This document shows, in pieces, positions 45,629-63,615 of a stretch of DNA of 64,000 nucleotides (the first letter of the stretch is position 1; each line of letters begins with the position of its first letter). A program made the translations under genes and the position numbers. The notes below the pieces were generated by a model. That model searched no databases and was not told the DNA's origin. It saw only the letters and a program-made list of their open reading frames with translations. The stretch lies in IMG/VR virus record IMGVR_UViG_3300049595_005065, one strand, 5' to 3'. The stretch is from a virus (Duplodnaviria > Caudoviricetes).

Positions 45629-45652
45629 TAGATATCTATTGAGTTCCCACGG

Positions 45653-45672
45653 GCGTGACTGTGTAGTCGCGC
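45653..45672 (+). terminator. T-GTGT-A loop hairpin, copy 1
   Basis: GCGTGACT-GTGT-AGTCGCGC followed by TTT. Confidence 0.5.
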
Positions 45673-45691
45673 TTTCCCCTTGGAGAAATCC

Positions 45692-46651
45692 ATGAGCACA
45701 ACGCTTGAAGCCCCGCCGGAAGTACCGGCGGGCGAAGGCGCCCCGGTCGCCGAGGCTGCGCAGGAGATGCGCGCTTCAATGGGCGCCGTAGAGCTGAGCT
45801 TCACCTGGCTCGGCACCCAGCGCAAGCTGGCCGATAGCCAGACCCGCCAGGCCGCCGACACCTTCCACGCCGACGCCAAGAGCGTGCGGGCAAGCAAGGT
45901 CCTGATCGACGCCAAGCACCCGGCATACCGGGCTGCCACCGTGATTCGCAGCCAGGCCCGCGGTTTCCTCCGCGGCATCAGCCTGCCCTATCCCCAGGAA
46001 GGCATCCGCCTGATCAAGTACGACGACATCGCGCGCTTTGAGGCGCAGATGACGGAGTTCCGCGAGCGGCTCGACAACGCCGTCGCGACGCTCCAAGAGC
46101 ACTACGACGCGATCAAGGCCGACGCCCGCGAGCGGCTGGGCGACCTCTACAACGCGGCCGACTACCCGGCTAGCCTTGAGGGCGTCTTTAGCCTCACCTG
46201 GGACTATCCCAGCATCGAGCCGCCGGAGTACCTGCTCCACTACAACCCGAGCCTATACCGGCAGCAGCAGGCCCGCGTCCAGGAGCGCTTCGAGCAGGCC
46301 GTGGTCCTGGCCGAGAACGCCTTTGGCGAAAGGCTCCAGGAGCTGATCGAACACCTGCTCGAACGGCTGCGGGGCGTGGAGACGGGCGAGACCAAAAAGT
46401 TCTCCAACTCAACAGTGGAAAACTTCGCCGAGTTCGCCGCCGAGTTCCGCCGGATGAACATCCGCGGCAACACCCAGCTGGAGAACCTGATCAATCAGGC
46501 GCAGTCGATCGTGGCGGGCGTGGACTCCAAGGCCATCCGCGCCAACGGGGACCTCCGCCAGACGCTGTCGACCCAGATGGGCGAGGTGCGCGACGCGCTC
46601 GATACGATCCTGGCCAACCAGCCTCGGCGCCGCGTCATGCGGATGGACTGA
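45692..46651 (+). CDS. DUF3150-like coiled-coil protein of the Ycf46 module
   Basis: 319 aa; GIRLI...F..QM....L....DYP; directly follows the AAA gene. Confidence 0.55.
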   Translation: MSTTLEAPPEVPAGEGAPVAEAAQEMRASMGAVELSFTWLGTQRKLADSQTRQAADTFHADAKSVRASKVLIDAKHPAYRAATVIRSQARGFLRGISLPYPQEGIRLIKYDDIARFEAQMTEFRERLDNAVATLQEHYDAIKADARERLGDLYNAADYPASLEGVFSLTWDYPSIEPPEYLLHYNPSLYRQQQARVQERFEQAVVLAENAFGERLQELIEHLLERLRGVETGETKKFSNSTVENFAEFAAEFRRMNIRGNTQLENLINQAQSIVAGVDSKAIRANGDLRQTLSTQMGEVRDALDTILANQPRRRVMRMD

Positions 46652-47697
46652 TGGATTTGGCCGCCAAGATCCTCGACCCGATGGTGCCCGACCTTGCGAA
46701 TCCTCCCCAGGTTCGCAAGCGTCGGGCGCCCAAGCATGATTTCAAGGACGGCAAGGGGCGCGTATTTGCCCACCGCCACGACAACGGCGGCGGCTGGGTC
46801 GCCGACACGGCCTGGGTGGCTCCGACCGTAAAGGTCACCCGCAATGCCCAGGTTTTTGACTTTGCACGCGTCCATGACAACTGCGAGATTACCGGCCAGG
46901 GTCGCGTCTTTGGACGAGCGCGGCTGTTTGACGCCGTAACGCTCTCGCAGCGCGCGGCGGTGCATGGCTACGCCACGGTGCGTAACAGCGTCTTTATCAA
47001 AGACGACGGTCAAATCTTCGGCAGCGCGCACGTGTGTGGCGACACCCGTATGACGAACAACGTGAATATCTACGACCATGCCGTGGTCATCAACTCGAAC
47101 CTCTGCGGGCCGCTGCGAAAAGGATTGTGCAGCGTCATTCGCGGCGCCGCCCGGGTACTCAACTCGCGGCTGTGGAGCTGGAATCAGGTGTACGACGCGG
47201 CGATGTTGGAAAACGCCCAGATCCAGGACTGTTTGGTCTCGTATAGCGCCCGCATTATCAACTCCGCGGTATCAACCAACATCTCCTACTACCTCCGGGC
47301 GTACGTTGAAGGGCGCCTGGAAACGTTGCCAGACGGTCATTTGCCGTACACGCCCAGCGCGCTGGTCAACGTGAACGGCACGATCGTCAACTCTCACATC
47401 AGCACAACGCGATGGACTGTCAACGACCGCGCGCAGTTTGTGGGTTGCACGTTGGTGAGTTACAACTCCGGCAACGCAAGTGTCGATGTTACGTTGCTGA
47501 ACTCGCTGAACGCGTTTGATCGCGCCATGGTGGGCGTCACGGCACGGTCGGCGGAAGAGATCAACAACGCCGTAAACCGAATCATGAACCCGGCGGCGGC
47601 TGCGGCCGCGGTGCCGATCCCGGCAATTGCCGCCCGCGGAGAGGCCAATTTCGAAGCCGTGCGGCAGCGCCGCATCATGCGGATGGAGGAATCATGA
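46651..47697 (+). CDS. left-handed beta-helix (hexapeptide-repeat-like) protein
   Basis: Repeated A.V.G.A.V-type hexads (NAQVFD FARVHD QGRVFG RARLFD). Confidence 0.75.
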   Translation: MDLAAKILDPMVPDLANPPQVRKRRAPKHDFKDGKGRVFAHRHDNGGGWVADTAWVAPTVKVTRNAQVFDFARVHDNCEITGQGRVFGRARLFDAVTLSQRAAVHGYATVRNSVFIKDDGQIFGSAHVCGDTRMTNNVNIYDHAVVINSNLCGPLRKGLCSVIRGAARVLNSRLWSWNQVYDAAMLENAQIQDCLVSYSARIINSAVSTNISYYLRAYVEGRLETLPDGHLPYTPSALVNVNGTIVNSHISTTRWTVNDRAQFVGCTLVSYNSGNASVDVTLLNSLNAFDRAMVGVTARSAEEINNAVNRIMNPAAAAAAVPIPAIAARGEANFEAVRQRRIMRMEES

Positions 47698-47966
47698 ACC
47701 TATACATCCGACCGGACGGCACGCTGCAGGCGATCTACGGCGAGGACGTTGACCTGGGCGCGTTGGGCGCCGTGAACGTCCGCCGCGCGTCGCATGTCGA
47801 GCCCGCGGCCAACGGACCGGGCTGGACTGCCGACCTCACCCCGGTGGGCGGTCCAGTCCTGGGGCCGTTCCAGAAACGCAGCGAGGCCCTGGCGGCCGAG
47901 ATCGCGTGGCTGGACACACGCCTGGCCAACGGGCCGGTTGCGGTCAGCGGAGGCGCGAGTGAGTAG
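47694..47966 (+). CDS. conserved small protein associated with the Ycf46 module
   Basis: IRPDGT..IYGE..DL..LG....RASHVEP...WTADL.PVGGPVLGPF..RSEAL.AE..WL. Confidence 0.75.
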   Translation: MNLYIRPDGTLQAIYGEDVDLGALGAVNVRRASHVEPAANGPGWTADLTPVGGPVLGPFQKRSEALAAEIAWLDTRLANGPVAVSGGASE

Positions 47967-48300
47967 CTGCGTCCCGTGGAACTTCGCCGACAACGACGGC
48001 CTGAATCCGACGAGCGTGCCGGGCGATTTTGATTTCAACGTCTGGTACGAACTCGAATACCTACCGCCCGGCCAGGCCATCTACGACACACCCGGCTTTG
48101 AGATCGTCGGCGTCACCTGCCCCTACGTGCAATTCGACGGCGAACCGCGCCGCAGGCGCCCGTTTGCCGTGGAACACGAGCAGCTGTGCGACTGGTTTTC
48201 CAGCTATCTCGACAGCCATCCTGACGAGTATGAAGCTATTAAAAACCAGGCGTTTGAGTACAGTTTTGTCGAGCCAGACTGCGACGACCATGAAGACTAA
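47959..48300 (+). CDS. hypothetical protein
   Basis: GTG start with SD GGAGG; 113 aa. Confidence 0.6.
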   Translation: MSSCVPWNFADNDGLNPTSVPGDFDFNVWYELEYLPPGQAIYDTPGFEIVGVTCPYVQFDGEPRRRRPFAVEHEQLCDWFSSYLDSHPDEYEAIKNQAFEYSFVEPDCDDHED

Positions 48301-48305
48301 TAACT

Positions 48306-48358
48306 GTTAACGCGCCTGCAACCAGTAGACTAATAACGTACCTCTGGAGGGGGCGTTA
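48306..48358 (+). promoter_or_regulatory. putative phage promoter/leader (copy 2 of GTTAACGCGCCT-N12-CTAAT)
   Basis: Same 12-mer, same spacing and CGTAC as at 32814; the 5' arm can pair with the SD GGAGGGGCGTT. Confidence 0.5.
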
Positions 48359-49068
48359 TGTTAACACGCGTGCTACTGGCTGTGTGGTTGACGTTTGTTT
48401 GTCTCTCTGTTCCGGCCAACGAGCCGGAATTTGTGTTTTTGGAGCCGATGTGGGAGGAAGACGCGCAATTGCCGCGGAGCCTGCGCTGCATCGAGGCGCG
48501 GCTTGAGCGACAGCACGACTTGCGCGTCGAAGACCAAATCACCTGGGCACACGAAGGCACGCACTACATCGACGCGCGCCTCAGTCGCTCTCCGGTGAGG
48601 GCCTTCTATTGCCTCCGCGGCAGGGTTGCGCGATTTCGCAATCCTCGGATATCTATAACCCAAGTCGCGCTGGCCACGCCGCCTGCGCTGCGAGGAAGAA
48701 TCTACAACACGTATCTGACCAACTCGGACAAGTTGCGTGTGTGGGACGATGACCCGCTCTACATCGTTCACGAATGGAACGCCTACACCAACGGCTCTCA
48801 GGTCCGCAAAGAACTGGGCTGGGACCGGCGTGGTGAGACTTTGGCGTATATGGCGGAAATGGGGGTTTACGTCTCTGTCTTGATTTCCTTGACAGAAGTG
48901 AAAGACCCCACTTATGATCTCGGACCTCTCGTCACGTTCGTTCGATGGAACGCGCGGCGAGGAAAAGAGATCGCGGGCGACCAATGGAATGGTCTCCCCG
49001 CGTTCGTTGCGGCCGCTGAGCATACGTTTGCTCCGGCCTTGGATCTGATGTTTCTTGAAAAGGAGTAA
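48358..49068 (+). CDS. secreted putative zinc metallopeptidase (gluzincin-like)
   Basis: Signal-peptide-like N-terminus; AHEGTH (HExxH); downstream HEWNAY. Confidence 0.55.
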   Translation: MLTRVLLAVWLTFVCLSVPANEPEFVFLEPMWEEDAQLPRSLRCIEARLERQHDLRVEDQITWAHEGTHYIDARLSRSPVRAFYCLRGRVARFRNPRISITQVALATPPALRGRIYNTYLTNSDKLRVWDDDPLYIVHEWNAYTNGSQVRKELGWDRRGETLAYMAEMGVYVSVLISLTEVKDPTYDLGPLVTFVRWNARRGKEIAGDQWNGLPAFVAAAEHTFAPALDLMFLEKE

Positions 49069-49072
49069 TCCC

Positions 49073-49471
49073 ATGAAGTCCGTTTTCTTCACCCTCTGCG
49101 CGCTCGTCTGCGGTTCGGTCCTCGCCGGGGAGTACCCCAGCGTCGTCAACCACAATCAGGCCCCGGCTCCGGCCGTGGCTGCGCCTGCTCCCGCCCCGGC
49201 ACCCGCCGCTGCGCCGTGCGTCAACTGCCCGGCCAACGAAGTGCTCGTGGTTGAGAGCCAGCCCGCGCGACAGATCGTGATCGTCGATGGCGCGCCGCGG
49301 CGGTGCGTCAACGGCCGCTGCAGCTCGAGCTCCAGCAGCGTGTGCACTGGCCCGAACTGCCAGAAGTACGCGATCACCGAGAACAACACCGAGACGGTGC
49401 GCAAGCGCTGGGTCGGTGGCGGCTACGTGATCCGCAACAACGGCCGCACGGTCGTCAAGCCGGTTCGCTGA
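49073..49471 (+). CDS. small secreted Cys-containing protein
   Basis: Signal peptide, PA-rich linker, Cys pairs; SD AAGGAG. Confidence 0.7.
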   Translation: MKSVFFTLCALVCGSVLAGEYPSVVNHNQAPAPAVAAPAPAPAPAAAPCVNCPANEVLVVESQPARQIVIVDGAPRRCVNGRCSSSSSSVCTGPNCQKYAITENNTETVRKRWVGGGYVIRNNGRTVVKPVR

Positions 49472-49498
49472 TCCGGTCGATCTGACAATCTCCTTGCC

Positions 49499-49540
49499 AC
49501 GGAGGGCGCATGGGTGTGTACCTGTGCGCCCTCCGTCTTT
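49499..49540 (+). terminator. T-GTGT-A loop hairpin, copy 2 (intrinsic-terminator-like)
   Basis: 17-bp stem, 49499-49515 with 49520-49536, containing 2 G.U pairs and followed by CTTTT. Confidence 0.65.
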
Positions 49541-49564
49541 TCACCCCCAACTTCACGAGGCAAC

Positions 49565-49804
49565 ATGCCCACGTTTCGCATCAACGTGTCCGAACAGCAC
49601 CACAAGGAATTCGTCGTCAACTGCGATGACCGGCGAAAGGCCGAGGAGCTGGCCGCCAGCATCCTGACTGACGGAGAAATCATGTCGGCCCTGACGACAA
49701 AGCCGATTCTTCGCACGCACGACTCCAAGACGACAGACTGCCAGATCAGCGAAGAGCCGGAAGGCTACTACGACAACGCGGCTGAATCCGCGCTGAGCGG
49801 TTGA
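49565..49804 (+). CDS. hypothetical protein
   Basis: SD GAGG; 79 aa. Confidence 0.65.
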   Translation: MPTFRINVSEQHHKEFVVNCDDRRKAEELAASILTDGEIMSALTTKPILRTHDSKTTDCQISEEPEGYYDNAAESALSG

Positions 49805-49826
49805 TTCCCCCAAACCACAGGACCAC

Positions 49827-51374
49827 ATGTCACGACTGACCAAGCGCCAGAAGACGATCATCTCCGATGTCGTGAGCCGCTGGGCTCACACTATCAACGG
49901 CACCGAGCCCGAAACCGTCGAGCGGGTGCAGGCCATTCTGGATCCGGTTTATCTCAGAGAGAAAATCACCCGCCAGGTCAAAGTCAAGAAAAAGAGTAAG
50001 AACGACACGCGCTGGCGCGGCTGGCGAAACGTCACAAAGCGCCTGTCGGCACCCAAGATTCACGTCGTTCACTCGCCGATCGCCTTCCGGATTGCTGCGG
50101 GCGTGCTTCGCGGGCAACTTTCCAAGACCCGCGCCAAGGAGATCTGCCGGGCTTTCGGCATCACCGACACGTTCGTCAACGATTTGAAGCGCGACACACT
50201 GTTCCGCACCCGCCAGGACCCGCACTGGTACCGGAACTGCTCAGCGCTGACCCAAGCCTGGGACGAGACCATGCGCAACCCAATCCGTGGCGCCGTGGCG
50301 GCTCTGTTCGACGAAGACGAGGAGGGCGGCACCCAAAACGAAGCTCTAGCGCGCCGCGCAAGAGCCCGCCGAATCAGGCGGCTGGGCCGTGACGCAGATT
50401 CCCAGCAGGAAAAGTACCGCGGCGTTTTTGCCGAACTGTTTGGTGACCGCGTGCCAGCGTCGCACAACAAAGAGGCGCGTGACCTGGAAAACCACAATTT
50501 ATGGCAAGTGACGCGGCAAAGAGGCGGCAGTCGGTTGGGCGAAAGTACAGAAAACCTTTGGCTGGGTAACTTTTGGCAAAACGAAGACGGCAACAAGGCC
50601 TCGAGGGAACTGCTTGACATTCCGCACAGCAGTGGCGCCCGATCGGCGATGCACGTTCGCCTGGAGATCGCCGGATTAGACGACAGCTGGACAACAACCG
50701 CCATCGACGCCGAGGTCCTCTGCGCCGGGCTGCAGTTTGGCGCGCACGCTCAGACCTGGCGAAACGACCTGATGCACGCGGCGTCGGTCGTGATGACGTT
50801 CCACACGCAGGCTTTAGTGCTCCTGGGTCGCCCAACGCTTCACCGCAACCGCGACGGCGAGCTGCACAACGACGAAGGCCCGGCCGTGCTCTATGCCGAC
50901 GGCACCAAGCAGTACTACCTCGACGGCCACGCTCTGGGCGCACTCGGCGAAAAGATCGTCGAGAAGCCCGAGACCCTCACGCTTGCCGACATCAACAGCG
51001 AGCGCAACGAGGAGGTCAAGCGGCTGGCGATCGAGGCCTATGGTTGGTCGCGGTATCTCGAGGCGGTCGGAGCCGTGGTGCTCGACCGCCGCCAGAACGA
51101 CGTTGACAACACGGTCGAGGCGCTGGTCAGAATTGCGGAAAATGTTCCATCGTCGCGTTGGGACAGCTTTGATCGCCGCATGATTGAGGCTAACACCACG
51201 ATCTACAAGCACAAGCTGGTATTGGCTTGTCGCTCAACAGCTCGGCAGTATTTCCTGTCCGTGCCCGATTTCATTCAAACCTGCGCGGCGGGCCAGCAGT
51301 GGCTCCACGCAGGCGCTGCCACGGATGTCGTGGACGTGTTGAACCATCCCGTGCGCCTGATTGGCGCGTCCTGA
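49827..51374 (+). CDS. DUF6745-like domain protein
   Basis: C-terminal LHNDEGPAVLYADG...YLDG...I.SERNEEVKRLAIE.YGW.RYL. Confidence 0.65.
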   Translation: MSRLTKRQKTIISDVVSRWAHTINGTEPETVERVQAILDPVYLREKITRQVKVKKKSKNDTRWRGWRNVTKRLSAPKIHVVHSPIAFRIAAGVLRGQLSKTRAKEICRAFGITDTFVNDLKRDTLFRTRQDPHWYRNCSALTQAWDETMRNPIRGAVAALFDEDEEGGTQNEALARRARARRIRRLGRDADSQQEKYRGVFAELFGDRVPASHNKEARDLENHNLWQVTRQRGGSRLGESTENLWLGNFWQNEDGNKASRELLDIPHSSGARSAMHVRLEIAGLDDSWTTTAIDAEVLCAGLQFGAHAQTWRNDLMHAASVVMTFHTQALVLLGRPTLHRNRDGELHNDEGPAVLYADGTKQYYLDGHALGALGEKIVEKPETLTLADINSERNEEVKRLAIEAYGWSRYLEAVGAVVLDRRQNDVDNTVEALVRIAENVPSSRWDSFDRRMIEANTTIYKHKLVLACRSTARQYFLSVPDFIQTCAAGQQWLHAGAATDVVDVLNHPVRLIGAS

Positions 51375-51394
51375 ACACAAACCAAGGAACTACC

Positions 51395-51961
51395 ATGAGC
51401 ACTGCTACTCTCAAAAAGAGCCACGTTTCCCAGACCCTCAGCCAAATCGCCGAGGCGGTCGAGGCCGTCAAGAACGACGGCTTGCAGATCTTTAGCGAGG
51501 CCGCCAGCGTCGGCGACAGCCTCCGCCAGGGCGACGTCGTCCTGCAGTTCATCGGCAGCGACCCTGTCGAGATCCCGCCCCATATCTACCAAAAGCTTGA
51601 TACCCCGGTCCTTCAGCTTGCCCCCGGCAACACGAAGGGCAGCCGCCACATCCTCTCTAGCGCCGAAGGCGTCGAGATGTGGGAGCCGGTCCCCACGGAC
51701 GAGGCGTGCGCCAAGTACGTCTACGAGAAGCACGGCAAGAAGTTCCCCAGCGGTACCGCACGCTGGAATCTCGATTTCAGCGAGGAACGAGGAGCGCTCG
51801 AGACCGCCATGGCGATGGCCGGGCCGTTCTTCCGCCTCTCCCAGCCGACCGTGCTGACTCACCCCGAGCACGGTGACTGGCAGCTCCCCTGCGGCACTTA
51901 CCGCGTGATCTTCCAGCGGACGCTCGACGAGCAGGAGCGGATCCAGCGGGTCCTCGACTGA
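51395..51961 (+). CDS. DUF6745-partner protein
   Basis: RQGDV...LAPGNTKGSRHIL...LTHPEHG...LP.GTY.V..QR. Confidence 0.65.
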   Translation: MSTATLKKSHVSQTLSQIAEAVEAVKNDGLQIFSEAASVGDSLRQGDVVLQFIGSDPVEIPPHIYQKLDTPVLQLAPGNTKGSRHILSSAEGVEMWEPVPTDEACAKYVYEKHGKKFPSGTARWNLDFSEERGALETAMAMAGPFFRLSQPTVLTHPEHGDWQLPCGTYRVIFQRTLDEQERIQRVLD

Positions 51962-51972
51962 TAGATATCTTT

Positions 51973-52003
51973 GGGCGGGGTCCGTGTGTACGGGCCCCTG
52001 CTC
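51973..52003 (+). terminator. T-GTGT-A loop hairpin, copy 3
   Basis: GGGGTCCGT-GTGT-ACGGGCCCC. Confidence 0.5.
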
Positions 52004-52009
52004 ACCCCC

Positions 52010-52117
52010 ATGAACATCTCGTTCTCCATCGACCGCTGGGACGTTCTGGCATTTGTCGTGGGCAGCCTGCTCGCGACGCTATTTCACAATTGGTTCCACC
52101 GAAACTACGGGAGATAG
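52010..52117 (+). CDS. small membrane peptide (35 aa)
   Basis: Fills the gap between genes; one TM segment; no SD. Confidence 0.35.
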   Translation: MNISFSIDRWDVLAFVVGSLLATLFHNWFHRNYGR

Positions 52118-52119
52118 CA

Positions 52120-52641
52120 GTGGGAATCGACGTTTACTTGCAGTGGAAGGGACAGACCGAAGAGGAGACGCAGGCCCAGTACACCGGCTTCTCGATCGAC
52201 GCCGGACACACCGGTTATCTGCGGGAGGCCTATCACGGCGGCCCGTATGCGACGCACATTCTCGTGCGCGAGGCGTTTGAGAGCGAGAACCAGAAGGCGC
52301 AGATCCCCGCCGCCGTGATGCGCGAGCGGCTCACCAGCGTCACCGAGCCCGCCCGGGGCTGCGACGGCGGCAGCAAGGCTGCCGAATTGATCTACGAAAT
52401 GATGCGAGCTGCGCGGGGAGACGCCATCCAGTGCGACGGCGCTGCGCAGCCGTTCGCCACGCACCGCACCGACCCGCAGACGGTCGAGGAGTGCATCCGC
52501 ACGCGGTGCGCCCTGGTCTATCGCGATATGCCGCCCGAAGAGGTGGAAGAGTACGTCAAGAGTTTCCGGGACTTCGTCGCGTTGGCGGAGCAGAAGGAAG
52601 CCCAGACCGGCGAGCCCTGCACGGTCTACGCAAGCTACTAG
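52120..52641 (+). CDS. conserved phage hypothetical protein
   Basis: MGIDVYL...GYLREAYHG; GTG start with SD GGGAG. Confidence 0.7.
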   Translation: MGIDVYLQWKGQTEEETQAQYTGFSIDAGHTGYLREAYHGGPYATHILVREAFESENQKAQIPAAVMRERLTSVTEPARGCDGGSKAAELIYEMMRAARGDAIQCDGAAQPFATHRTDPQTVEECIRTRCALVYRDMPPEEVEEYVKSFRDFVALAEQKEAQTGEPCTVYASY

Positions 52642-52649
52642 GAGGCTTT

Positions 52650-52961
52650 ATGCCGCTGATGGATTTGCATGTCCAGGTCAAGAGCAACCTGGAACAGACC
52701 ACGTTCGATATTCATAATTTCAACCCGACGGTGCGCGCGTCTGACCGTTCGCCGGTCGGCCCGCGATACGACTACGTCGTGCTGTCCCAGGGCAAGTATG
52801 ACGCCCCGACCCATGTGCGGCTGTTCATCAACCGCGAGGAAGTGCTGGCGCTCTACGACCAGCTCACGCCAATCGTTGAGCAGTGGCGCGCCGACGCCCA
52901 GCCGGTTGTGGTGATCCCCTCTGCGGCAGCCGCTGACGCTCCGGAGGTGGCGCTGCTGTGA
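52650..52961 (+). CDS. hypothetical protein
   Basis: SD AGGAGG. Confidence 0.7.
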   Translation: MPLMDLHVQVKSNLEQTTFDIHNFNPTVRASDRSPVGPRYDYVVLSQGKYDAPTHVRLFINREEVLALYDQLTPIVEQWRADAQPVVVIPSAAAADAPEVALL

Positions 52962-53386
52962 GGGACTCAGGGGCAGATGATTTCTTCGCCAACTACCTCC
53001 GGCTAGCCGAGGAGCGAAAACAGGCGGCTGCGGCCCAGCTCAAGGCCGCCTGCGCTCCGCTGGCGTCGGTCGGAATCAAGCAGATCACCTGGTCGTACGA
53101 CGGCTCGGGCGACTCGGGCGACATGGAAGGGCGTTACATCACAAACGTCCACGGCCAGTGCTCGGAAAAAGACTACGCCGCCGCCATCAAGGGACTCGAC
53201 CAGGAACTTCAAAAACAGCTCACCCTGGAGGAGCTTGAAAAAGCCGTCTGGGAACTGCTCCCGGACGGCTTCGAGGTCAACGACGGCGGCTACGGTGAGG
53301 TGATTCTCGACACAGCCGCTCGGGCAATTAGCGTGCAGCACAACGCGCGCATTACGGAGACAGAGTATTCGGAAACGGAGTACTGA
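52958..53386 (+). CDS. DUF6878-like protein
   Basis: YDGSGDSG...FEVNDGGYGEV...HNAR. Confidence 0.7.
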   Translation: MRDSGADDFFANYLRLAEERKQAAAAQLKAACAPLASVGIKQITWSYDGSGDSGDMEGRYITNVHGQCSEKDYAAAIKGLDQELQKQLTLEELEKAVWELLPDGFEVNDGGYGEVILDTAARAISVQHNARITETEYSETEY

Positions 53387-53769
53387 TGGCGCACCCGTAC
53401 CATCACGCCGTCAGTTCTGCCCGGAAGTTCGGCGGCTTGCCCGAGGACTACATAAAGTTTCACGACTTTCTTGATGGTTCCAAGGCCCACGTCGCCGACT
53501 TCCGGCACCGCGCCCTCCGCCACCACACGGAGGGCATTTTCATGATGGAGCAGATATTTGGCTCCACGATGACCAATTCCGACGGCCGCGTCGTGCCGGT
53601 GCGCTACATCGGCGAGCAGCACGTCAAAGAAGACCTGGGACGCATTCCCACGGTTGCCGACTGGCTGCTTCACATCGAGCCCCAGCGCTGGATGCTTGGC
53701 CGCGGCAAAGACCTCGCCAAGGAGCTTGAGCTTGAAGAAGCCGAAAAGAACCCGAGTGTCGCTCAGTGA
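53386..53769 (+). CDS. DUF6915-like protein
   Basis: MAHPYHHAVSSARKFGG.PEDY...DFRHRALRHH..G...EQHVKEDLG.IP. Confidence 0.8.
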   Translation: MAHPYHHAVSSARKFGGLPEDYIKFHDFLDGSKAHVADFRHRALRHHTEGIFMMEQIFGSTMTNSDGRVVPVRYIGEQHVKEDLGRIPTVADWLLHIEPQRWMLGRGKDLAKELELEEAEKNPSVAQ

Positions 53770-54025
53770 AGACGACCTCAAAGATATCAATCCCGATTCG
53801 CAGCTTCACAAACGAGTAGTCGAAGAGCTCGCGAGCATTGAAGCCGGGCGCCCGTACGTCAAGTACGCCGAGGACCGGCTGCAGCGTGACGGCGACCTAG
53901 AGATCGACGACGACGCCGTGGTCAGCCTGGGCTTCGACGACGGCGCCTACATCATGTGCTGGAAGTGGATCGACCACGACACCATGCGCGCCGAAGGTTA
54001 CCTGGAGCCCGACAATGACGATTGA
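53756..54025 (+). CDS. hypothetical protein
   Basis: GTG start; DGDLEIDDDAVVS..GAY...W.W. Confidence 0.65.
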   Translation: MSLSEDDLKDINPDSQLHKRVVEELASIEAGRPYVKYAEDRLQRDGDLEIDDDAVVSLGFDDGAYIMCWKWIDHDTMRAEGYLEPDNDD

Positions 54026-54224
54026 AGAAGCGATCGAGAATCTCGAAGCCGCCAGGCAGCGCGGCGTGAAGAGCGTCATCCTGGCTTACTGGGAAGCCGA
54101 TCAGTTTCAGCGCGAAGACAACGAGGAGTGGGAGCACGCCGCCGAGCTTGTTGAGCGCAAAATGGACTGGTCTGGCACACACGATGACCTGGCCATGACG
54201 CTAGACCTTTACACAAACGAGTAA
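54015..54224 (+). CDS. hypothetical protein
   Basis: Overlapping-operon ORF, 69 aa. Confidence 0.65.
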   Translation: MTIEEAIENLEAARQRGVKSVILAYWEADQFQREDNEEWEHAAELVERKMDWSGTHDDLAMTLDLYTNE

Positions 54225-54227
54225 CAA

Positions 54228-54440
54228 ATGCCTGCACCGCCGATTGACCATTTTTCAGACGAGCTGGTCACGCTCCTGGAGTTCGTCCGGGTCGCCGTGA
54301 AGGGTTTCCCCAAGACGACCGACAAGATCCTGACCCACATGGACCTGTCCGACGAGGCCTTCATGGAGGCTGTCAACGCGCTCGCCGCCGAGGTCAGCTT
54401 CGACTTCGACGAGGAGCCGGACGACGTGGAGGACGAATGA
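54228..54440 (+). CDS. hypothetical acidic protein
   Basis: 70 aa, typical codon bias. Confidence 0.65.
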   Translation: MPAPPIDHFSDELVTLLEFVRVAVKGFPKTTDKILTHMDLSDEAFMEAVNALAAEVSFDFDEEPDDVEDE

Positions 54441-54676
54441 GCGACAAATCCAAGAAAACCAGCAAGAAGCAGCACACGATCCAGGAGCTGCTCAGCATGC
54501 GCGACCGCCTGGACGACCTGCTAGCCGAGCTGTGCCCGCCTTGCCCCGAGTGCTGTCCGCCCGACTGGCCCGGCGAACCGGGCGAGATCGTGGATCACGG
54601 CAAAGGCGAAATCAGCATCTGCGAGCACTGCTGGGGCCGAGGTTACATGGAACCCGACGAGGGCGACGATGGCTAA
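54437..54676 (+). CDS. small Zn-finger protein
   Basis: CPEC...CEHCWGRG. Confidence 0.65.
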   Translation: MSDKSKKTSKKQHTIQELLSMRDRLDDLLAELCPPCPECCPPDWPGEPGEIVDHGKGEISICEHCWGRGYMEPDEGDDG

Positions 54677-54863
54677 GAAACCTGTCGACCTTGCAAAGCA
54701 GCTCCGGGACTGCCAAAAGCGCCTCAGCGACGCCCTGGACGTGCTGGAGAACATCAAGTACGCGGCCGACAACGGCGACTGGGACATCCTGGACGCCGCG
54801 GCGATCGGCGCTGAGCGCGAGCTGAAGCGCAATGGCCGCAACACCAAAGATGAGGACAAGTAA
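54669..54863 (+). CDS. hypothetical protein
   Basis: 64 aa, overlapping operon. Confidence 0.6.
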   Translation: MAKKPVDLAKQLRDCQKRLSDALDVLENIKYAADNGDWDILDAAAIGAERELKRNGRNTKDEDK

Positions 54864-55246
54864 TGGCCCGTAGCGGCAAACGCAGTTTTGAAGTTTATCG
54901 ATTTCCGACCACAACCCCCGACAAGTTCATCGAGGTCAAGGTCGCTTATTGCGAGGGCGGCGCCAATAACTTCAGTGGCGTCACAAACTCTCGCGCTTAT
55001 TACATGCACGTTACGCCGATTACCGTGGAGCGGCTTGTTGGCGGCGTCGAAACCAAATCGTACAAGCTGTTTCACGGCTGCAAATCGCTAATTGAAGAAG
55101 TCAAACGCTATAGCGAAAAGCGGATTCTTGCGCTGGTCAACCAGGTTGGGCGGGATTGCGAAACCAGGGCGCCAAAAGTCATGCGGCTGGTTAACTTCGT
55201 GCTCAACGAAGAAGACCTGACCCTAGCCGAAACGGTGGCGGCGTAA
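54863..55246 (+). CDS. hypothetical protein
   Basis: TAATG overlap; 127 aa. Confidence 0.65.
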   Translation: MARSGKRSFEVYRFPTTTPDKFIEVKVAYCEGGANNFSGVTNSRAYYMHVTPITVERLVGGVETKSYKLFHGCKSLIEEVKRYSEKRILALVNQVGRDCETRAPKVMRLVNFVLNEEDLTLAETVAA

Positions 55247-55248
55247 TT

Positions 55249-55425
55249 ATGCCTCAACTGCGAATTGAAGCCGAGTACGGCTATGACGGAGAGATCAATT
55301 ACCACGTTATTGAGTTTGACGACGAACACGAAGAGGAAGTCGTGGCGGTCGTGTACGGCCGCGAGGACATCGCCGAAGCGTTGGTTAACGCCGTTCAAGC
55401 CTTTGAAGTACTGGGAAAAATGTAA
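55249..55425 (+). CDS. small acidic protein (absent from ORF track)
   Basis: 58 aa, MPQLRIEAEYGYDGEINYHVIEF...; fills the gap exactly. Confidence 0.55.
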   Translation: MPQLRIEAEYGYDGEINYHVIEFDDEHEEEVVAVVYGREDIAEALVNAVQAFEVLGKM

Positions 55426-55760
55426 TGAATCAATCGTATCGCAACATTTGTAGGGCGTTTTGGGCTGATCATATTGACGACGACCCTGTGTCGGATGACG
55501 TGCTTGACGCAATGAGCGACGCACTAGACGCCACAGCGCAAGATTGCGCGGCATTTTTTCTTGCTCACGGTACGCATCCTTGGCTTGTCAGCGAAGAACC
55601 AGACGAAAGGCTTATTGCGGTCGCGCCAAAACTTCTGGAAGCCGCAAAGCTGCTCGTGGTGCTCGAAGACAACGAGGTACACGACGCAGATACACGATGG
55701 AAAACAGCTCGTAAGCTATTGCGCAAAGCCATTGCGCAAGCAGAAGGAAAAACCACATGA
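55425..55760 (+). CDS. hypothetical protein
   Basis: TAATG overlap; C-terminal LIAVAPKLLEA..A..KAIAQA motif common in phage ORFs. Confidence 0.65.
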   Translation: MNQSYRNICRAFWADHIDDDPVSDDVLDAMSDALDATAQDCAAFFLAHGTHPWLVSEEPDERLIAVAPKLLEAAKLLVVLEDNEVHDADTRWKTARKLLRKAIAQAEGKTT

Positions 55761-56215
55761 CTGCAAGACTTGCCTACATCATGCGCCATGACGCGGAATT
55801 CGATCCCGCCCACATGCGCGAGATCATCTATGACCTGTATGCCGGGTCGTTCGAGAACGATTGCGGCAGCACCGACGAGATCGTGGACGTCCTGAGCACG
55901 GCGATTTTCAAGTACCGCTGCGCCACCGAGGACGACCTGGACACCGAGAAGGAATTCATCAAGGACGGCCACGCCGCGGAGCAGTACTTCTGCGACTGCA
56001 TGCGGAAGATCCTGGCGGCCAACGGTTGGCACCCCGACGGCCTGGAAGACTACGCCGTCTGGCCGGACAACCTCTCGGTCGAGACGACCTGGGAAAAGGA
56101 AGTCCTGCGCGAACTGGCGCAAATCCAGGCGGGCCACGACCTGGTGGTCCGGGACCAGCTCAAGAAGCTGTGGGAAGAAGAGAAAGCCAAGGAGGGCGCC
56201 GCCAAGGCGGAATAG
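55757..56215 (+). CDS. hypothetical protein
   Basis: 152 aa, strong codon bias. Confidence 0.7.
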   Translation: MTARLAYIMRHDAEFDPAHMREIIYDLYAGSFENDCGSTDEIVDVLSTAIFKYRCATEDDLDTEKEFIKDGHAAEQYFCDCMRKILAANGWHPDGLEDYAVWPDNLSVETTWEKEVLRELAQIQAGHDLVVRDQLKKLWEEEKAKEGAAKAE

Positions 56216-56221
56216 ATATCT

Positions 56222-56545
56222 ATGGAAGCACGCGTTTTCACCAAGGGCATCCTGAAGAGCGTCAACACCATGGCGCAGGTTCAGGGCTATAACCGGGTCA
56301 CCGACGAGAAGTTCCTCGACCGGCTGCCCGACGGGTTCTACACGCCCAAGTACACCCTGCTGCACGAGCACAAGGCAGGCAAGCCCTGCGAGCCGCACGT
56401 CCGCTGCGTGTTCGACCACGAGGGGGACTATTTCTTTATCGACGTCGAAATGGGCTGCTGGGAGAAGCTCCCAACGGCCAGCGGTTTCGCCGATATGATC
56501 GCGCATGTTCACAGCCGTCGGGCCATGGGAGACACCAGCGTATGA
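56222..56545 (+). CDS. hypothetical protein
   Basis: 107 aa; His/Cys cluster HEH...CEPHVRC. Confidence 0.7.
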   Translation: MEARVFTKGILKSVNTMAQVQGYNRVTDEKFLDRLPDGFYTPKYTLLHEHKAGKPCEPHVRCVFDHEGDYFFIDVEMGCWEKLPTASGFADMIAHVHSRRAMGDTSV

Positions 56546-56976
56546 GCGTCGAACTGATCAAGGCCCGGCAGCAGGAACTGGCTGCTGCCGAGGCTGCCCG
56601 CCGCAAGGCCATCCAGGACCGCGCCGACGCGGCCAGGGAGGCGTTTGAGCGCACGGGCATTCCCGAGGCCTGGAAGCAGCTCGCGGACGTCAAGGTGCCG
56701 CACTGGCGCGGAGACGGCAGTCGGCAGAACGTCGACAGCAAGAATCTGGTGCCGCTGGCCGAGCACGCCAAGAAGTTCACCGATACGGCGCTGATCCTGT
56801 ACGATTGGGACGGCGAGACGCGAATGGGCTGGGCCGTCGAGACCACGGACAAGGGCGCCGTGATCTTCGTGCGGCGTGAGCGCACCTGCACCACGTCGAC
56901 CTGGCACACGCCCGAAGAACTGCAGAAGGATTTCGTCGACTACATGGCGAAGTTCCTGCCGCCGCTGGAAAACTAG
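56542..56976 (+). CDS. hypothetical protein
   Basis: ATGA overlap; 144 aa. Confidence 0.7.
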   Translation: MSVELIKARQQELAAAEAARRKAIQDRADAAREAFERTGIPEAWKQLADVKVPHWRGDGSRQNVDSKNLVPLAEHAKKFTDTALILYDWDGETRMGWAVETTDKGAVIFVRRERTCTTSTWHTPEELQKDFVDYMAKFLPPLEN

Positions 56977-56985
56977 GAGGGACGA

Positions 56986-57261
56986 ATGACCGACTGCGAA
57001 CTTACCAATCTTCGCGCAGAGAACAAATTATTGGCGGCAGAATTAGAAAAGCACCGCGAAGCTATCTGCCGCCTCGCTGACCAAGACGCAACGCTGTCGG
57101 TGTGCAACGGCAACGTGACGGTGACGATGGATGGCACGCTGACCGACGAGGAGCGGGAGGCGCTGGATGACGCGGCACATGCTGTTGCGCAAATTTATGT
57201 TGGACCCAAAGGCGTAGGCATTGCCGCCACGCTCCGCTCGCTGCTGGAGAGAACCAAATGA
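56986..57261 (+). CDS. hypothetical protein with TLTDEEREA module
   Basis: SD AGGAGG. Confidence 0.65.
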   Translation: MTDCELTNLRAENKLLAAELEKHREAICRLADQDATLSVCNGNVTVTMDGTLTDEEREALDDAAHAVAQIYVGPKGVGIAATLRSLLERTK

Positions 57262-57488
57262 GAATCGACCCTGACGTAATTGAGGCATCCCGGCCCGATG
57301 ATCGCGAGATAGCGTTACTCGCGGCGGAAGTGCGGCGCCTACAGGCCGTAATTAACAGCGAAGAACCCACGCTCACCGACGAGGAGCGGGAGGCGATTGA
57401 GTTGGCGACGCAGGAAGCAGGAGGTGCCAACCTGCTCGCCGCCAGGCTCCGCGCGCTGCTTCAACGACTAGAAAAAGCCAATGGCTAA
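57258..57488 (+). CDS. hypothetical protein with TLTDEEREA module
   Basis: ATGA overlap; shares a 28-nt repeat with the previous gene. Confidence 0.65.
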   Translation: MRIDPDVIEASRPDDREIALLAAEVRRLQAVINSEEPTLTDEEREAIELATQEAGGANLLAARLRALLQRLEKANG

Positions 57489-57666
57489 CACGCGTGTTTG
57501 CACGCTCTCGCTCACCGTTCGGTACGATCCAGCGCTCACGGACCCCGAAGGGCTGTGCGGCGCCCTCGATCAGCTGCTGGAGACCGCGATGAGCACGCCG
57601 GGCATCATGGAAGAATACGGAGATCCAAGTATCAGTGGTTTTAACGTTGTGGAGTTCAACGAATGA
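57481..57666 (+). CDS. hypothetical protein
   Basis: 61 aa, overlapping operon. Confidence 0.6.
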   Translation: MANTRVCTLSLTVRYDPALTDPEGLCGALDQLLETAMSTPGIMEEYGDPSISGFNVVEFNE

Positions 57667-57863
57667 CTGTGGTTACGCTTAATCTTGAAAAGCGCGGCGC
57701 CAAAGTGCTGCGCGAGGTCCTTTCCTACGCCCTGTCGAACCTGGACGACCTGAACGAGGCGCTCGACAGCGACGTGCAGGAGGACGAGGTCAACTTCATG
57801 CTCAACGTGCTGAACAGCCTCGAGCTGGACGCGCCAAACACAGAAGACGAGCCGACCGAATGA
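57663..57863 (+). CDS. hypothetical acidic protein
   Basis: 66 aa, ATGA overlaps at both ends. Confidence 0.65.
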   Translation: MTVVTLNLEKRGAKVLREVLSYALSNLDDLNEALDSDVQEDEVNFMLNVLNSLELDAPNTEDEPTE

Positions 57864-58792
57864 TTCTGCTTACCGGCGCCGCGGGCTTTATCGGCTCAAA
57901 CGTCCTCAAGGCGCTCAACGCCCAGGGCCGCGACGACATCATCTGCGTTGACGACCTGACCGACGGGCGCAAGATGCAACACCTCGCCGGGAAGAAGTTT
58001 TACTATTACTGTGATTATCGCGACCTGGGAAAAGGTAAAACGCGCGAGGCCAAGCTTAGCGCGATTATTCACCAGGGTGCAAACTCGGACACCACCGAGT
58101 CAAACGGCCGTAACATCATGCTGGCCAATTACAGTTTTTCGGTGGATTTGTTCGACCTGGCGGCTGCCGCGGCCTGTCCGCTGATCTACGCTTCAAGCGC
58201 GGCGATCTACGGCCCGGGCAAGCCCCGGTGCGTCGAGTCGCACGAGCACGAGCACGAGCACCCGACCACGCCGTACGCCATCTCGAAGTGGGCGTTTGAC
58301 GAATACGTCCGCGGTCGATTGACGCAGGCGGCTAACAGGGTGGTCGGCCTGCGGTATTTCAACGTCTACGGCCCGGGCGAGGCGCACAAGGGCCGGATGG
58401 CCAGCGTAGCGCACCACCTGTTCGAGCAAGCCAAGCTGAACGGCGACTGCGTGCTCTTCGAGGGAAGCAAAGATATCTTTCGTGATTTTGTCTACATCGA
58501 CGACGTTGTACAGGTCGTCTTGTGGGCACTGAACGAAGCACCCTCGGGGATTTACAATGTCGGCACCGGCCAGGCTCGGTCGTTTCACGACGTGTTCGAG
58601 TGCGTGGCGCGGCAAACGAAGTATCCCGGCGCATGCCGCTGGGTTCCGTTTCCCGAGGAGCTGCGCGCCCAGTATCAGTTTCACACGCAGGCTGACCTTA
58701 CTCGCCTGCGCGCGGCCGGTTACGCCGAAGCGTTTCGGTCGCTGGAAGAGGGCATGACGGCGTACTGGCGCAACATCCAGTACGCAGCATGA
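57860..58792 (+). CDS. hldD: ADP-L-glycero-D-manno-heptose 6-epimerase
   Basis: TGAAGFIGSN, HQGANSDTTE, YASSAAIYG, YAISK (YxxxK), LRYFNVYGPGEAHKGRMASV, RDFVYIDDV, YQFHTQAD. Confidence 0.92.
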   Translation: MILLTGAAGFIGSNVLKALNAQGRDDIICVDDLTDGRKMQHLAGKKFYYYCDYRDLGKGKTREAKLSAIIHQGANSDTTESNGRNIMLANYSFSVDLFDLAAAAACPLIYASSAAIYGPGKPRCVESHEHEHEHPTTPYAISKWAFDEYVRGRLTQAANRVVGLRYFNVYGPGEAHKGRMASVAHHLFEQAKLNGDCVLFEGSKDIFRDFVYIDDVVQVVLWALNEAPSGIYNVGTGQARSFHDVFECVARQTKYPGACRWVPFPEELRAQYQFHTQADLTRLRAAGYAEAFRSLEEGMTAYWRNIQYAA

Positions 58793-58941
58793 GTTACCGC
58801 GCGACTTTACCCAATGTTTTGCAAACGTATTTCGTTTGCGTGTTACAGAGGCAACTAATGAAAGTTAGACGACTTGGTTTGTGTCCTGACCCCGCGCAAC
58901 TTGCGGCAAAGCAAAACACAACCATTCCCAAGGAAACGCCT

Positions 58942-59226
58942 GTGAAGACAAGAATTACCCGTACCAAGCAGGTAGCGCGCAAGGCTAGCGTGACGCTTGA
59001 AGACGGTTTTGTGATTATCAAACTTCCGTTTGTAACGGAAGGCAAGCCCAGCTCGACCGGTAAGACCAATATTCACGGCGCCACCCACGGCCCGCGGCGC
59101 GTGCTGCAAGAAACCGCCAACGGCATGGAGCCCGTGATCATTAACAATGGCTATCTTAAGGCCATTGCGTCTGTTTTTGCGGCACCAGACAGCCTTGACA
59201 ACAGCCAGAACGATTCCACCAACTGA
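58942..59226 (+). CDS. hypothetical protein
   Basis: GTG start, SD AAGGA; KPSSTGKT motif. Confidence 0.6.
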   Translation: MKTRITRTKQVARKASVTLEDGFVIIKLPFVTEGKPSSTGKTNIHGATHGPRRVLQETANGMEPVIINNGYLKAIASVFAAPDSLDNSQNDSTN

Positions 59227-59237
59227 CAGGAGGATTT

Positions 59238-60353
59238 ATGTCCAACACGGAACAGAGACGAGATCGCAACTTCCACCGCAGCGCGCCGACGAACGAGATC
59301 GCAGAGCAGCTGCTGATCGGCCTGCCTCGTGATACGTCGCTCAGAACGCTGCCTCATGTCCTGCCCGGCTGTTCGCTTGACGCAAACGGGCGCGCAATTC
59401 CCGAAGAGGAACGGCAGCCGCAGGTCTGGGAAGACGGCGTCTACATCGCGGTGTGCAACCGGGTCGCGCGCGAATTGCAGAAGTACAACACCTGCAATCG
59501 CAATCGCCGCGAAAACAACGTCACGCGACTTGTCGACGCGATGATGACCAACGCGTGGATGTACAACGGAAAGTCGAGCACGCTGGCCTGCTCGAACACG
59601 GCAATCCTCGACAGCCAGCATTTCCTCGAGGCAGCCGTGCGCTACTTCGAGGGGCCGGAGACCGAGCACGTCAAGCGACCGTTCTTGATGCGCGTCGAGA
59701 TGGGGCTGCCGCCAGAAACCTTCGCAACCTACGACAATGGCGCCAAGCGCACTGTCGCAGACACGCTGGTTGTCGGCGCGGCAACGGGATCGGTCGACTA
59801 CGGCGACGTTTCGGACACGTTGCTGGCGTCGTCGCAGAGGCTGCTGTTGCAGTATCTCAACAACGTCCATGATGACCTCAAGCCGACGGATCTCGAGTAC
59901 CTGCCCAACGAACGGGCCGGTCTCGTGAACAGCCGCGCTTGCGATATCCTCCGGGCATATCCAAACCTGGTGTCGTCCGCAGCGTTCATCACCACCCTTC
60001 GTGGCCTGCAGGCTTTTGTGAAGGGCCACGTTGCGGTGGTCGCGCACATGCTGATCTCGGAGATCCAGTCGACCAACGCCGCAAACAACTTCCTTCGCGG
60101 CCTGGCCACCGGTGTTAACCTCGAGGAAGGCAGCCCGGTGCTCGCATTGCGCAGCGTCTACATGAAGTCGCGCTCGCGAAAGCGTCGGATGGAAGGTCCC
60201 GAGGCGCTTGCGTTTTTCATCCGCGCCTGGAACTTTTTCGCAGAAGGAAAGACCATCTCGGCTGGTCGTCTGCGTGGGTTCGATCCGGAAAACAAGATCC
60301 CCGTGCCGCAGAGACTGTCTCGAGCGCGTCGAACTGAGGCTGTCGAGAGCTGA
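59238..60353 (+). CDS. ParB/Srx-like N-terminal domain protein with degenerate nucleotide-binding motif
   Basis: NRNRRENNVTRLVDAM...W...ILDSQHFLEA (cf. LDGQHRL.A)...YDNGAKRTVAD. Confidence 0.6.
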   Translation: MSNTEQRRDRNFHRSAPTNEIAEQLLIGLPRDTSLRTLPHVLPGCSLDANGRAIPEEERQPQVWEDGVYIAVCNRVARELQKYNTCNRNRRENNVTRLVDAMMTNAWMYNGKSSTLACSNTAILDSQHFLEAAVRYFEGPETEHVKRPFLMRVEMGLPPETFATYDNGAKRTVADTLVVGAATGSVDYGDVSDTLLASSQRLLLQYLNNVHDDLKPTDLEYLPNERAGLVNSRACDILRAYPNLVSSAAFITTLRGLQAFVKGHVAVVAHMLISEIQSTNAANNFLRGLATGVNLEEGSPVLALRSVYMKSRSRKRRMEGPEALAFFIRAWNFFAEGKTISAGRLRGFDPENKIPVPQRLSRARRTEAVES

Positions 60354-60371
60354 TCTTTCTAGATTGGGAGA

Positions 60372-60582
60372 TTGGGAGGGATGGCAGGGCTGTGTAGCCC
60401 TGCCTCCCAACCAAATCCTCTACTCCCTTATGGCCACCGAAGGTGGCCATCTAGGTCAGGGCAAATCGGACAGCTTTTTTTCTTAGCTGTCAACGTAAGT
60501 GCTCTGTTTGCAAAGACTTAAGTAGGCTGCGCGCAGCGTTTTTCGCAGCGCACTCTCAAAAAACTGCGCGTAAGTCTTTGCA
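60372..60582 (+). ncRNA. cluster of three intergenic hairpins, including T-GTGT-A loop copy 4
   Basis: GGCAGGGCT-GTGT-AGCCCTGCC; ATGGCCACC-GAA-GGTGGCCAT; TGCAAAGACTTA(60509)...TAAGTCTTTGCA(60582). Confidence 0.45.
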
Positions 60583-63509: not shown

Positions 63510-63523
63510 CAGTCACAGGTGAT

Positions 63524-63596: not shown

Positions 63597-63615
63597 TTCA
63601 CCTGGCTAACAGATG

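What the first reader, a model, noticed from the sequence alone, without database searches (positions are those of the whole stretch)
45653..60411. Four intergenic hairpins share an identical T-GTGT-A loop but have unrelated stems
Seen: 45653-45672, 49499-49536, 51973-52003 and 60384-60405. Stems are 8-17 bp with different sequences; three contain G.U pairs valid only on + RNA; all sit just after a stop codon. Two directly follow a WWWGATATCWWW site, and only one has a clear U-tract. A conserved loop on variable stems is the signature of a protein-recognised RNA element (cf. lambda boxB, MS2 operator). Inference: a phage antitermination, processing or stability signal. I do not recognise UGUGUA as a described element.
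Basis: partly seen in the sequence, partly recalled or inferred. Interest (0 to 1): 0.7.

Follow-up and report, generated by a model that had tools for sequence, protein, structure and literature searches.

The report
Gene-end RNA hairpins with UGUGUA cap
Four RNA hairpins that follow stop codons in an uncultured 200-kb lake phage carry the same UGUGUA loop on unrelated stems, and relatives keep this loop while the stems change, so the loop seems to be under selection, but its reader and its function are unknown.

Summary
Four of the five sense-strand TGTGTA words in the window are loops of 8-17-bp hairpins (45651-45674, 49499-49536, 51972-52004, 60367-60418). Each starts 10-29 nt after a TGA stop, and three have G.U pairs that fit only the + strand.

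Chance does not explain this. A shared hexamer in 4 or more of 53 intergenic hairpins has P of about 3e-4. The stems and flanks are not repeats of each other.

The window is part of a jumbo phage of about 200 kb with almost all genes on one strand. In four relatives the orthologous hairpins persist and their stems covary. Hairpins 1 and 3 keep UGUGUA at about 75% nucleotide identity. The loop is not invariant, though. Hairpin 2 shows UAUGUA, UACGUA or CGUAAA, hairpin 4 shows UAUGUA or an unrelated loop, and the most distant relative has no UGUGUA hairpin.

Hairpin 2 is a clade-wide terminator-type hairpin with a U-tract. The other three have no clear U-tract.

Best reading: these hairpins form or protect mRNA 3' ends and carry a lineage-specific selected cap, U-R-U-G-U-A. 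Recognition of the loop by a protein is plausible but not shown. I found no matching Rfam family, paper or partner protein. The scan noted this same stretch once before (e1-5378189), without follow-up.

The parts
45651..45674 (+). hp1: hairpin with loop TGTGTA at 45660-45665. It starts 22 nt after the TGA stop (45626-45628) of the AAA-ATPase gene. GGAG lies at 45682-45685 and the next ATG at 45692.
   Evidence: orthologs and covariation
49499..49536 (+). hp2: 17-bp hairpin (-33 kcal/mol) with loop TGTGTA at 49515-49520, followed by CUUUUC. It starts 27 nt after the TGA stop (49469-49471) of a 138-aa gene. The next ATG is at 49565. It is terminator-like.
   Evidence: orthologs with U-tracts
51972..52004 (+). 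hp3: hairpin (core 51977-51998) with loop TGTGTA at 51985-51990. It starts 10 nt after the TGA stop (51959-51961) of a 244-aa gene. An ATG lies at 52010. There is no U-tract.
   Evidence: orthologs
60367..60418 (+). hp4: extended hairpin (core 60383-60404, all Watson-Crick) with loop TGTGTA at 60391-60396. It starts 13 nt after the TGA stop (60351-60353) of a 371-aa gene. It is the first of four hairpins in a 227-nt structured spacer.
45628..45639 (.). Copy of the genome-wide 12-bp palindrome (ATAGATATCTAT). It overlaps the stop codon and lies 11 nt before hp1.
   Evidence: conserved before hp1 in relatives
51961..51972 (.). Copy of the palindrome (ATAGATATCTTT). It overlaps the stop codon and abuts hp3.
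62826..62831 (+). The only sense-strand TGTGTA in the window that is not a hairpin loop. It has no flanking pairs and serves as an internal control.

Best explanation
The four elements are real stem-loops of the sense-strand RNA, placed just beyond the stop codons of four genes in one 15-kb block of a jumbo phage that is transcribed in one direction. They belong to a small lineage-specific set of gene-end hairpins capped by U-R-U-G-U-A: mostly UGUGUA, with UAUGUA as a one-step variant.

Most likely they form or protect mRNA 3' ends. They could do this as partial terminators or as barriers to 3' exonucleases after cleavage, which would set different levels for the gene before and the gene after each hairpin.

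Shown: the structure, the strand, the position after stops, the covariation of the stems, and the recurrence and partial conservation of the cap.

Inferred: the 3'-end function, and that the cap is kept by selection. That selection could come from a trans-acting factor that reads the cap or from folding properties of the cap, as with the cUUCGg caps found on other hairpins of the same phages.
For: - Position and strand: all four start 10-29 nt after a TGA, outside the footprint of a terminating ribosome, on the coding strand. G.U pairs are frequent and A.C pairs are almost absent in 17 distinct hairpins. The sense strand folds better than the antisense strand for hp1 and hp3.
- Structure under selection: hp1 orthologs have 4 pairs changed on both sides, with a covariation score of 0.289 against 0.123 and 0 of 500 shuffles as high. 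In G004 the hp1 stem is entirely different but the loop is the same.
- Cap selected: by the automatic criterion 12 of 48 sense TGTGTA words in five genomes are hairpin loops, against 1 of 81 antisense words and at most 3% for control words. I later reassigned two of the 12 to the arm of a longer stem.
- uGUGUa ties with cUUCGg as the commonest cap among 292 intergenic sense hairpins, with 6 each.
- Terminator character: hp2 keeps its outer stem and a U-tract in every relative, including those with 77% TerL identity. hp1 has UUUUCUC in four relatives. A UGUGUA hairpin at 49289-49317 of G001 is followed by UUUU.
- Not copies of one repeat: no direct-repeat family links the four sites.
Against: - hp3 and hp4 have no U-tract, and the next start codon lies only 5-28 nt after hp1-hp3. 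Strong termination there would silence the downstream genes.
- No transcript ends could be examined.
- The cap is replaced in some orthologs (UACGUA, CGUAAA, an 8-nt loop, UUUCAC). It is therefore dispensable at least at hp2 and hp4.
- UGUGUA is not among the loops with a known stability bonus, from my knowledge of the Turner parameters. A purely structural reason for its recurrence has no support.
- There are only 3-5 such hairpins per 150-200-kb genome, and they cluster in one gene block. That pattern fits a local regulator as well as a general 3'-end device.
Confidence: 0.5

Rival explanations
1. The hairpins are docking sites for a specific RNA-binding factor that reads the UGUGUA cap. The factor could be an antitermination or termination cofactor of the phage's own transcription machinery, or a translational operator protein for the gene that starts just downstream.
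For: - The cap is the same on unrelated stems and is kept across relatives with different stems.
- The cap is lineage-specific. It is present in the window, G003, G004 and G001 and absent from G002, as expected for a co-evolving protein-RNA pair.
- There are few sites, clustered in one block.
- hp1-hp3 end 5-28 nt before the next start codon.
- The phage clade encodes its own RNA polymerase. Earlier notes report a sigma factor and a giant-virus-type helicase, which I did not check.
Against: - No RNA-binding domain was found in about 30 neighbouring proteins.
- Orthologous sites tolerate other loops.
- hp4 has no gene within 170 nt downstream, so a translational operator role cannot hold for all four.
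- TGTGTA is not avoided outside the hairpins: observed 74, expected 61.
Confidence: 0.27
2. They are plain intrinsic terminators or structural hairpins, and the shared loop has no function. It would reflect drift from near-palindromic centres (UACGUA to UAUGUA to UGUGUA by transitions that keep wobble complementarity) or a chance coincidence.
For: - hp2 orthologs show exactly this series: TACGTA, TATGTA, TGTGTA.
- All three variants are self-complementary if wobble pairs are allowed.
- Identity between the window and G001 summed over the four loops is about 18 of 24. That is no higher than the average for coding DNA.
Against: - The probability of 4 or more identical hexamer caps among 53 intergenic hairpins is 2.6e-4.
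- Four of the five TGTGTA words are loops.
- hp1 and hp3 keep all six loop bases while the surrounding intergenic sequence cannot be aligned.
- The enrichment is specific to the sense strand.
Confidence: 0.12
3. The hairpins act in single-stranded DNA. They could be priming or initiation signals on the lagging-strand template, or hairpin promoters for a virion RNA polymerase as in phage N4.
For: - A conserved loop on variable stems also describes the N4 early promoters (my own knowledge).
- The related phage Arash carries its RNA polymerase in the virion (PMC10585845).
- G.T pairs can also form in DNA.
Against: - N4-type promoters fold on the template strand. Here the template strand would carry C.A mismatches and folds worse.
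- The stems are 9-17 bp with 4-6-nt loops, not 5-7 bp with 3-nt loops.
- The position right after stop codons and the U-tracts at hp2 point to RNA.
- Three to five sites per genome are too few for lagging-strand priming.
Confidence: 0.06

Closest known systems
Intercistronic C(UUCG)G hairpins of phage T4 (Tuerk et al. 1988; cited from my own knowledge)
   Same: Many gene-end or intercistronic hairpins have different stems but one shared cap. They sit on the sense RNA of a large lytic phage. The same phage clade also uses cUUCGg on other gene-end hairpins.
   Different: It is confined to one sub-clade and to 3-5 sites per genome.
Rho-independent (intrinsic) terminators
   Same: They are GC-rich hairpins just downstream of a stop codon. 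hp2 and its orthologs have a U-tract.
   Different: hp3 and hp4 lack a U-tract, and hp1 has only UUU in the window. Intrinsic terminators have no loop-sequence requirement. Canonical terminators are rare in these genomes, at 3-12 per genome.
Lambdoid nut/boxB sites bound by N protein
   Same: They are small RNA hairpins read through their loop. They are few per genome, lie in untranslated RNA right after a gene (nutR lies after cro), and act on transcription elongation.
   Different: boxB has a 5-bp stem and a GNRA-like pentaloop with a boxA element nearby. Here the stems are 9-17 bp and the loop is a tetraloop or hexaloop. I saw no boxA and no N-like protein.
Histone mRNA 3' stem-loop with SLBP (eukaryotes)
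   Same: A short hairpin with a conserved loop at the 3' end of a set of mRNAs, read by a dedicated protein to form the 3' end.
   Different: It belongs to another domain of life, and its stem sequence is conserved there too. I offer it only as a functional analogy.

Membership tests
Intrinsic (Rho-independent) terminator | Stable GC-rich hairpin downstream of a gene | tested here: met
   dG is -13 to -33 kcal/mol, and the hairpins start 10-29 nt after stops.
Intrinsic (Rho-independent) terminator | U-tract of about 4-8 U directly 3' of the stem | tested here: inconclusive
   hp2 has CUUUUC, and its relatives have UUUUU or longer runs. hp1 has UUUCCCC, with UUUUCUC in relatives. hp3 and hp4 have none.
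Lambda-type nut site (boxA + boxB) | 5-bp stem with a GNRA-like pentaloop, plus a boxA element | tested here: not met
   The stems are 9-17 bp and the loop is UGUGUA. No boxA-like motif is shared upstream.
MS2/PP7-type coat-protein operator | Hairpin with a bulged purine that includes the start codon of the regulated gene | tested here: not met
   There is no conserved bulge. The start codons lie 5-28 nt beyond the stems, or more than 170 nt beyond for hp4.
RNase III processing site (T7-type) | About 20 bp or more of double-stranded RNA; an RNase III enzyme available | tested here: inconclusive
   Only hp2 (17 bp) and the extended hp4 come near that length. No RNase III gene was found in G001-G003. 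The host enzyme is unknown.
N4 virion-RNAP hairpin promoter | 5-7-bp stem with a 3-nt loop, formed on the template strand upstream of the start site | tested here: not met
   The wobble pairs fit only the non-template (+) strand, and the stem and loop sizes differ.
Dispersed repeat (REP/BIME or MITE-like) | Copies share stem and flank sequence | tested here: not met
   The stems are unrelated. No direct-repeat family joins the sites.
ANTAR-regulated dual hairpins | Two tandem hexaloop hairpins with A at loop position 1 and G at position 4 | tested here: not met
   These are single hairpins, and loop position 1 is U.
Any Rfam family | Match at or above the gathering score | tested here: not met
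   Only two tRNAs matched in the whole window.

The most novel reading that the evidence does not exclude
UGUGUA/UAUGUA-capped hairpins are the cis signal of a factor-dependent system for ending or passing transcripts, one that belongs to the phage's own self-contained transcription machinery (the fused/split RNA polymerase and its helpers). This would be a phage-specific termination or antitermination code that co-evolves with its reader and was re-tuned or lost in the sister lineage G002.
Probability: 0.2. Interest if true: 0.75.

Novelty: new variant of a known kind. Interest (0 to 1): 0.45.

Why it matters
Jumbo phages that bring their own RNA polymerase must end, process and balance very long one-directional transcripts. 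Almost nothing is known about the signals they use for this. A small set of gene-end hairpins with a selected, lineage-specific cap is a concrete and mutable candidate for such a signal. If the cap turns out to be a purely structural preference, it would instead add a new member to the short list of favoured hairpin caps such as UUCG and GNRA.

Tried and rejected
- RNA evidence: no RNA holder is listed among the public runs.
- Natural variants: I laid four lake-metagenome DNA runs on 45500-60500. None gave a variant at the hairpins, so I have no population-level covariation.
- Own genome: it is not held and is not in the viral contig collection. Only the G003 variant of hp4 was found. The rest of this phage could not be scanned.
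- More orthologs: searches with the genes before hp4 and hp3 added nothing new. The metagenome scan with the ATPase gave only distant relatives without the hairpin.
- Cultured relative: none closer than about 31% ATPase identity.
- A fifth locus ("hp5"): TGTGTA hairpins called in G003 (99007-99039) and G001 (107062-107084) are really part of the 5' arm of a 27-30-bp hairpin. That arm pairs with TACACA about 45 nt downstream. I removed both from the set.
- Pseudoknot between the loop and a downstream UACAC: this is seen only in some relatives of hp2 and hp3, not in the window. The linker is too short for a 17-bp stem (inspection).
- Mimic of the anticodon loop of the phage tRNA-Thr(UGU): the two share only UGUA. 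The loop has 6 nt rather than 7, and there is no U33.
- Avoidance of TGTGTA outside hairpins: none.
- Palindrome-hairpin coupling: it holds for hp1 and hp3 only. The other intergenic palindrome copies have no hairpin. My rough estimate is P about 0.07.
CsrA is present in the clade.
- Literature: I found no UGUGUA or GUGU loop element in bacteria or phages. The paper on phage Arash says nothing about terminators.
Full report
**1. The observation**

- hp1 is at 45651-45674, hp2 at 49499-49536, hp3 at 51977-51998 (extended 51972-52004), and hp4 at 60383-60404 (extended 60367-60418).
- The loop can be read as the hexaloop UGUGUA, or as a GUGU tetraloop closed by U-A.
- The stems are unrelated in sequence. 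hp1, hp2 and hp3 contain G.U pairs that would be C.A mismatches on the other strand.
- For hp1 and hp3 the + strand folds clearly better than the - strand.
- Each hairpin starts 10-29 nt after a TGA stop codon (ending at 45628, 49471, 51961 and 60353).
- The 12-bp palindrome WWWGATATCWWW precedes hp1 and hp3.
- Only hp2 has a U-run.

**2. Chance**

- TGTGTA occurs 12 times in the window, about the number expected.
- Four of the five + strand copies are hairpin loops, and none of the seven - strand copies is.
- It is the most frequent hexamer loop in the window. The runner-up is a tandem protein-coding repeat.
- I drew loops from the hairpins of outgroup phages. Any hexamer reached four copies among 53 intergenic hairpins in 2.6e-4 of trials.
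- No direct-repeat family links the sites, so they are not copies of one mobile element.

**3. What the window is**

- It is 62% GC with almost all genes on the + strand.
- It carries tail or baseplate genes, a large terminase gene on the minus strand, an AAA ATPase and many unknown genes.
- It has no close match among sequenced phages.
- It is collinear, at about 70-78% nucleotide identity, with a complete 203,910-bp viral contig with terminal repeats, which I call G001.
- Closer relatives are G003 and G004. More distant ones are G002, G005 and G006.
- G001 encodes an RNA polymerase beta-like protein, and the clade encodes CsrA.
- Public runs that hold the sequence are lake-water metagenomes.

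**4. Comparative evidence**

Orthologous intergenic regions give the following picture.

| Hairpin | Loops in the window and relatives |
|---|---|
| hp1 | UGUGUA in the window, four close relatives, G004 and G001; UGCGAA on a weak stem in G002 |
| hp2 | UGUGUA in the window and G003; UAUGUA in G004 and the clade with 77% TerL identity; UACGUA in G001; CGUAAA in G002 |
| hp3 | UGUGUA in the window, G003 and G001; an 8-nt loop in G004; UAAGUA in G002 |
| hp4 | UGUGUA in the window; UAUGUA in G003; UUUCAC in G001 |

- For hp1, the stem in G004 is entirely different and longer, and in G001 the flanks cannot be aligned, yet the loop is unchanged.
- hp1 covariation is significant: 4 pairs changed on both sides, score 0.289 against 0.123, and 0 of 500 shuffles as high.
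- hp2 keeps its outer stem and a U-tract everywhere. In hp3 the stems show compensatory changes.
- G001 has one more UGUGUA hairpin, followed by UUUU, at 49289-49317. That lies outside the region matching the window.
- Anchored on the loop, 17 distinct hairpins show about 1.7 bits per loop column against 0.2-1.1 bits in the stems. At the same time 14-16 of 17 are paired at each of the first eight stem positions.

**5. Genome-wide counts**

- In five genomes, 12 of 48 sense-strand TGTGTA words are closed hairpin loops. The figures are 1 of 81 on the antisense strand and 0-3% for twenty control words.
- Two of the 12, in G001 and G003, turned out to lie in the arm of a long hairpin and were removed.
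- UAUGUA is also enriched (3 of 23 against 0 of 22).
- Among 292 intergenic sense hairpins, uGUGUa and cUUCGg are the two commonest caps, with 6 each.
- There are only 3-5 such hairpins per genome, clustered in the block downstream of the ATPase. G002 has none.
- TGTGTA is not avoided elsewhere.

**6. Interpretation**

The consistent features are sense-strand RNA folding, placement just past a stop codon, covarying stems and a favoured cap. hp2 is a terminator-type hairpin. The others lack U-tracts, and canonical terminators are rare in these genomes.

I therefore read the set as gene-end hairpins that form or protect mRNA 3' ends within long one-directional transcription units.

The cap appears to be selected, because it recurs on unrelated stems and persists at hp1 and hp3. 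It is also replaceable at hp2 and hp4. Whether a factor reads it or it is a folding preference cannot be decided here.
- I found no RNA-binding domain nearby.
- The phage has no RNase III gene.
- There is no Rfam match and no paper on such a loop.
- The parallel use of cUUCGg in the same genomes shows that these phages do use structurally favoured caps. That keeps the structural reading alive.
- A template-strand DNA hairpin promoter of the N4 type is disfavoured by the wobble pairs.

**7. Context from earlier notes of this scan**

I treat these as leads only.
- The palindrome lattice is real in this window: 18 copies against 0.01 expected.
- Earlier notes also report that the phage's only RNA polymerase is probably packaged, with a sigma factor and a giant-virus-type helicase. 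I did not test those claims beyond.
- They suggest where a reader of the cap might be sought.
- The same stretch was noted once before (e1-5378189) without follow-up.

**8. Verdict**

This is a real, non-random and evolutionarily maintained feature. It is moderately interesting.

Noticed in passing
window 2137-63716 (18 sites, e.g. 2137, 8207, 21213, 35762, 45628, 51961, 56212, 63705): The 12-bp AT-rich palindrome WWWGATATCWWW occurs 18 times against 0.01 expected. It lies inside genes and between them, about every 3.5 kb. Earlier follow-ups of this scan have already described it.
   Followed up: partly
window 60354-60580: The 227-nt spacer after hp4 folds into four hairpins (-100 kcal/mol, z = -6.7). 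G001 keeps the layout, and the second hairpin there has a different stem. It may be a small non-coding RNA or a compound transcript-end region.
   Followed up: partly
window 24011-24086; L025 19018-19076; L015 (minus strand) about 7020-7080: A very stable hairpin of about 27-30 bp (z about -9). The base of its 5' arm reads GGCUGCGUAGCC in the window and GGCUGUGUAGCC in G003 and G001, with the matching change in the 3' arm. This arm could also fold locally into a small hairpin with a U-R-Y-G-U-A cap.
   Followed up: partly
window 45643-45690 and 49494-49563: The flanks of hp1 pair UUCC(C) with the downstream GGAG. The flanks of hp2 pair UUGCC with GGCAA just before the next ATG. Each hairpin therefore sits inside an outer helix that may mask the ribosome-binding site of the next gene.
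   Followed up: no
window 57023-57523: In four lake metagenomes this 0.5-kb stretch has 10-100 times the contig depth of its neighbours, with many loose ends at about 57170 and 57366-57408. The segment seems to be shared with many other genomes in the samples.
   Followed up: no
window 26003-26206: A small gene that corresponds by synteny to the CsrA match in G001, G002 and G003.
   Followed up: partly
window 63523-63597 and 63615-63689: tRNA-Asn(GUU) and tRNA-Thr(UGU) genes, followed directly by a palindrome copy at 63705.
   Followed up: partly
window 13480-13950: Three tandem 177-bp repeats inside the 861-aa ORF 12949-15534. Each carries the same internal hairpin (loop GTCAAC). This is a protein repeat, not an RNA element.
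   Followed up: partly
G001 17015-17053, 17860-17902, 11919-11945 (loci L010): Strong cUUCGg-capped hairpins followed by U-rich tails, two of them near-identical copies. These are the clearest canonical terminators of the clade.
   Followed up: no
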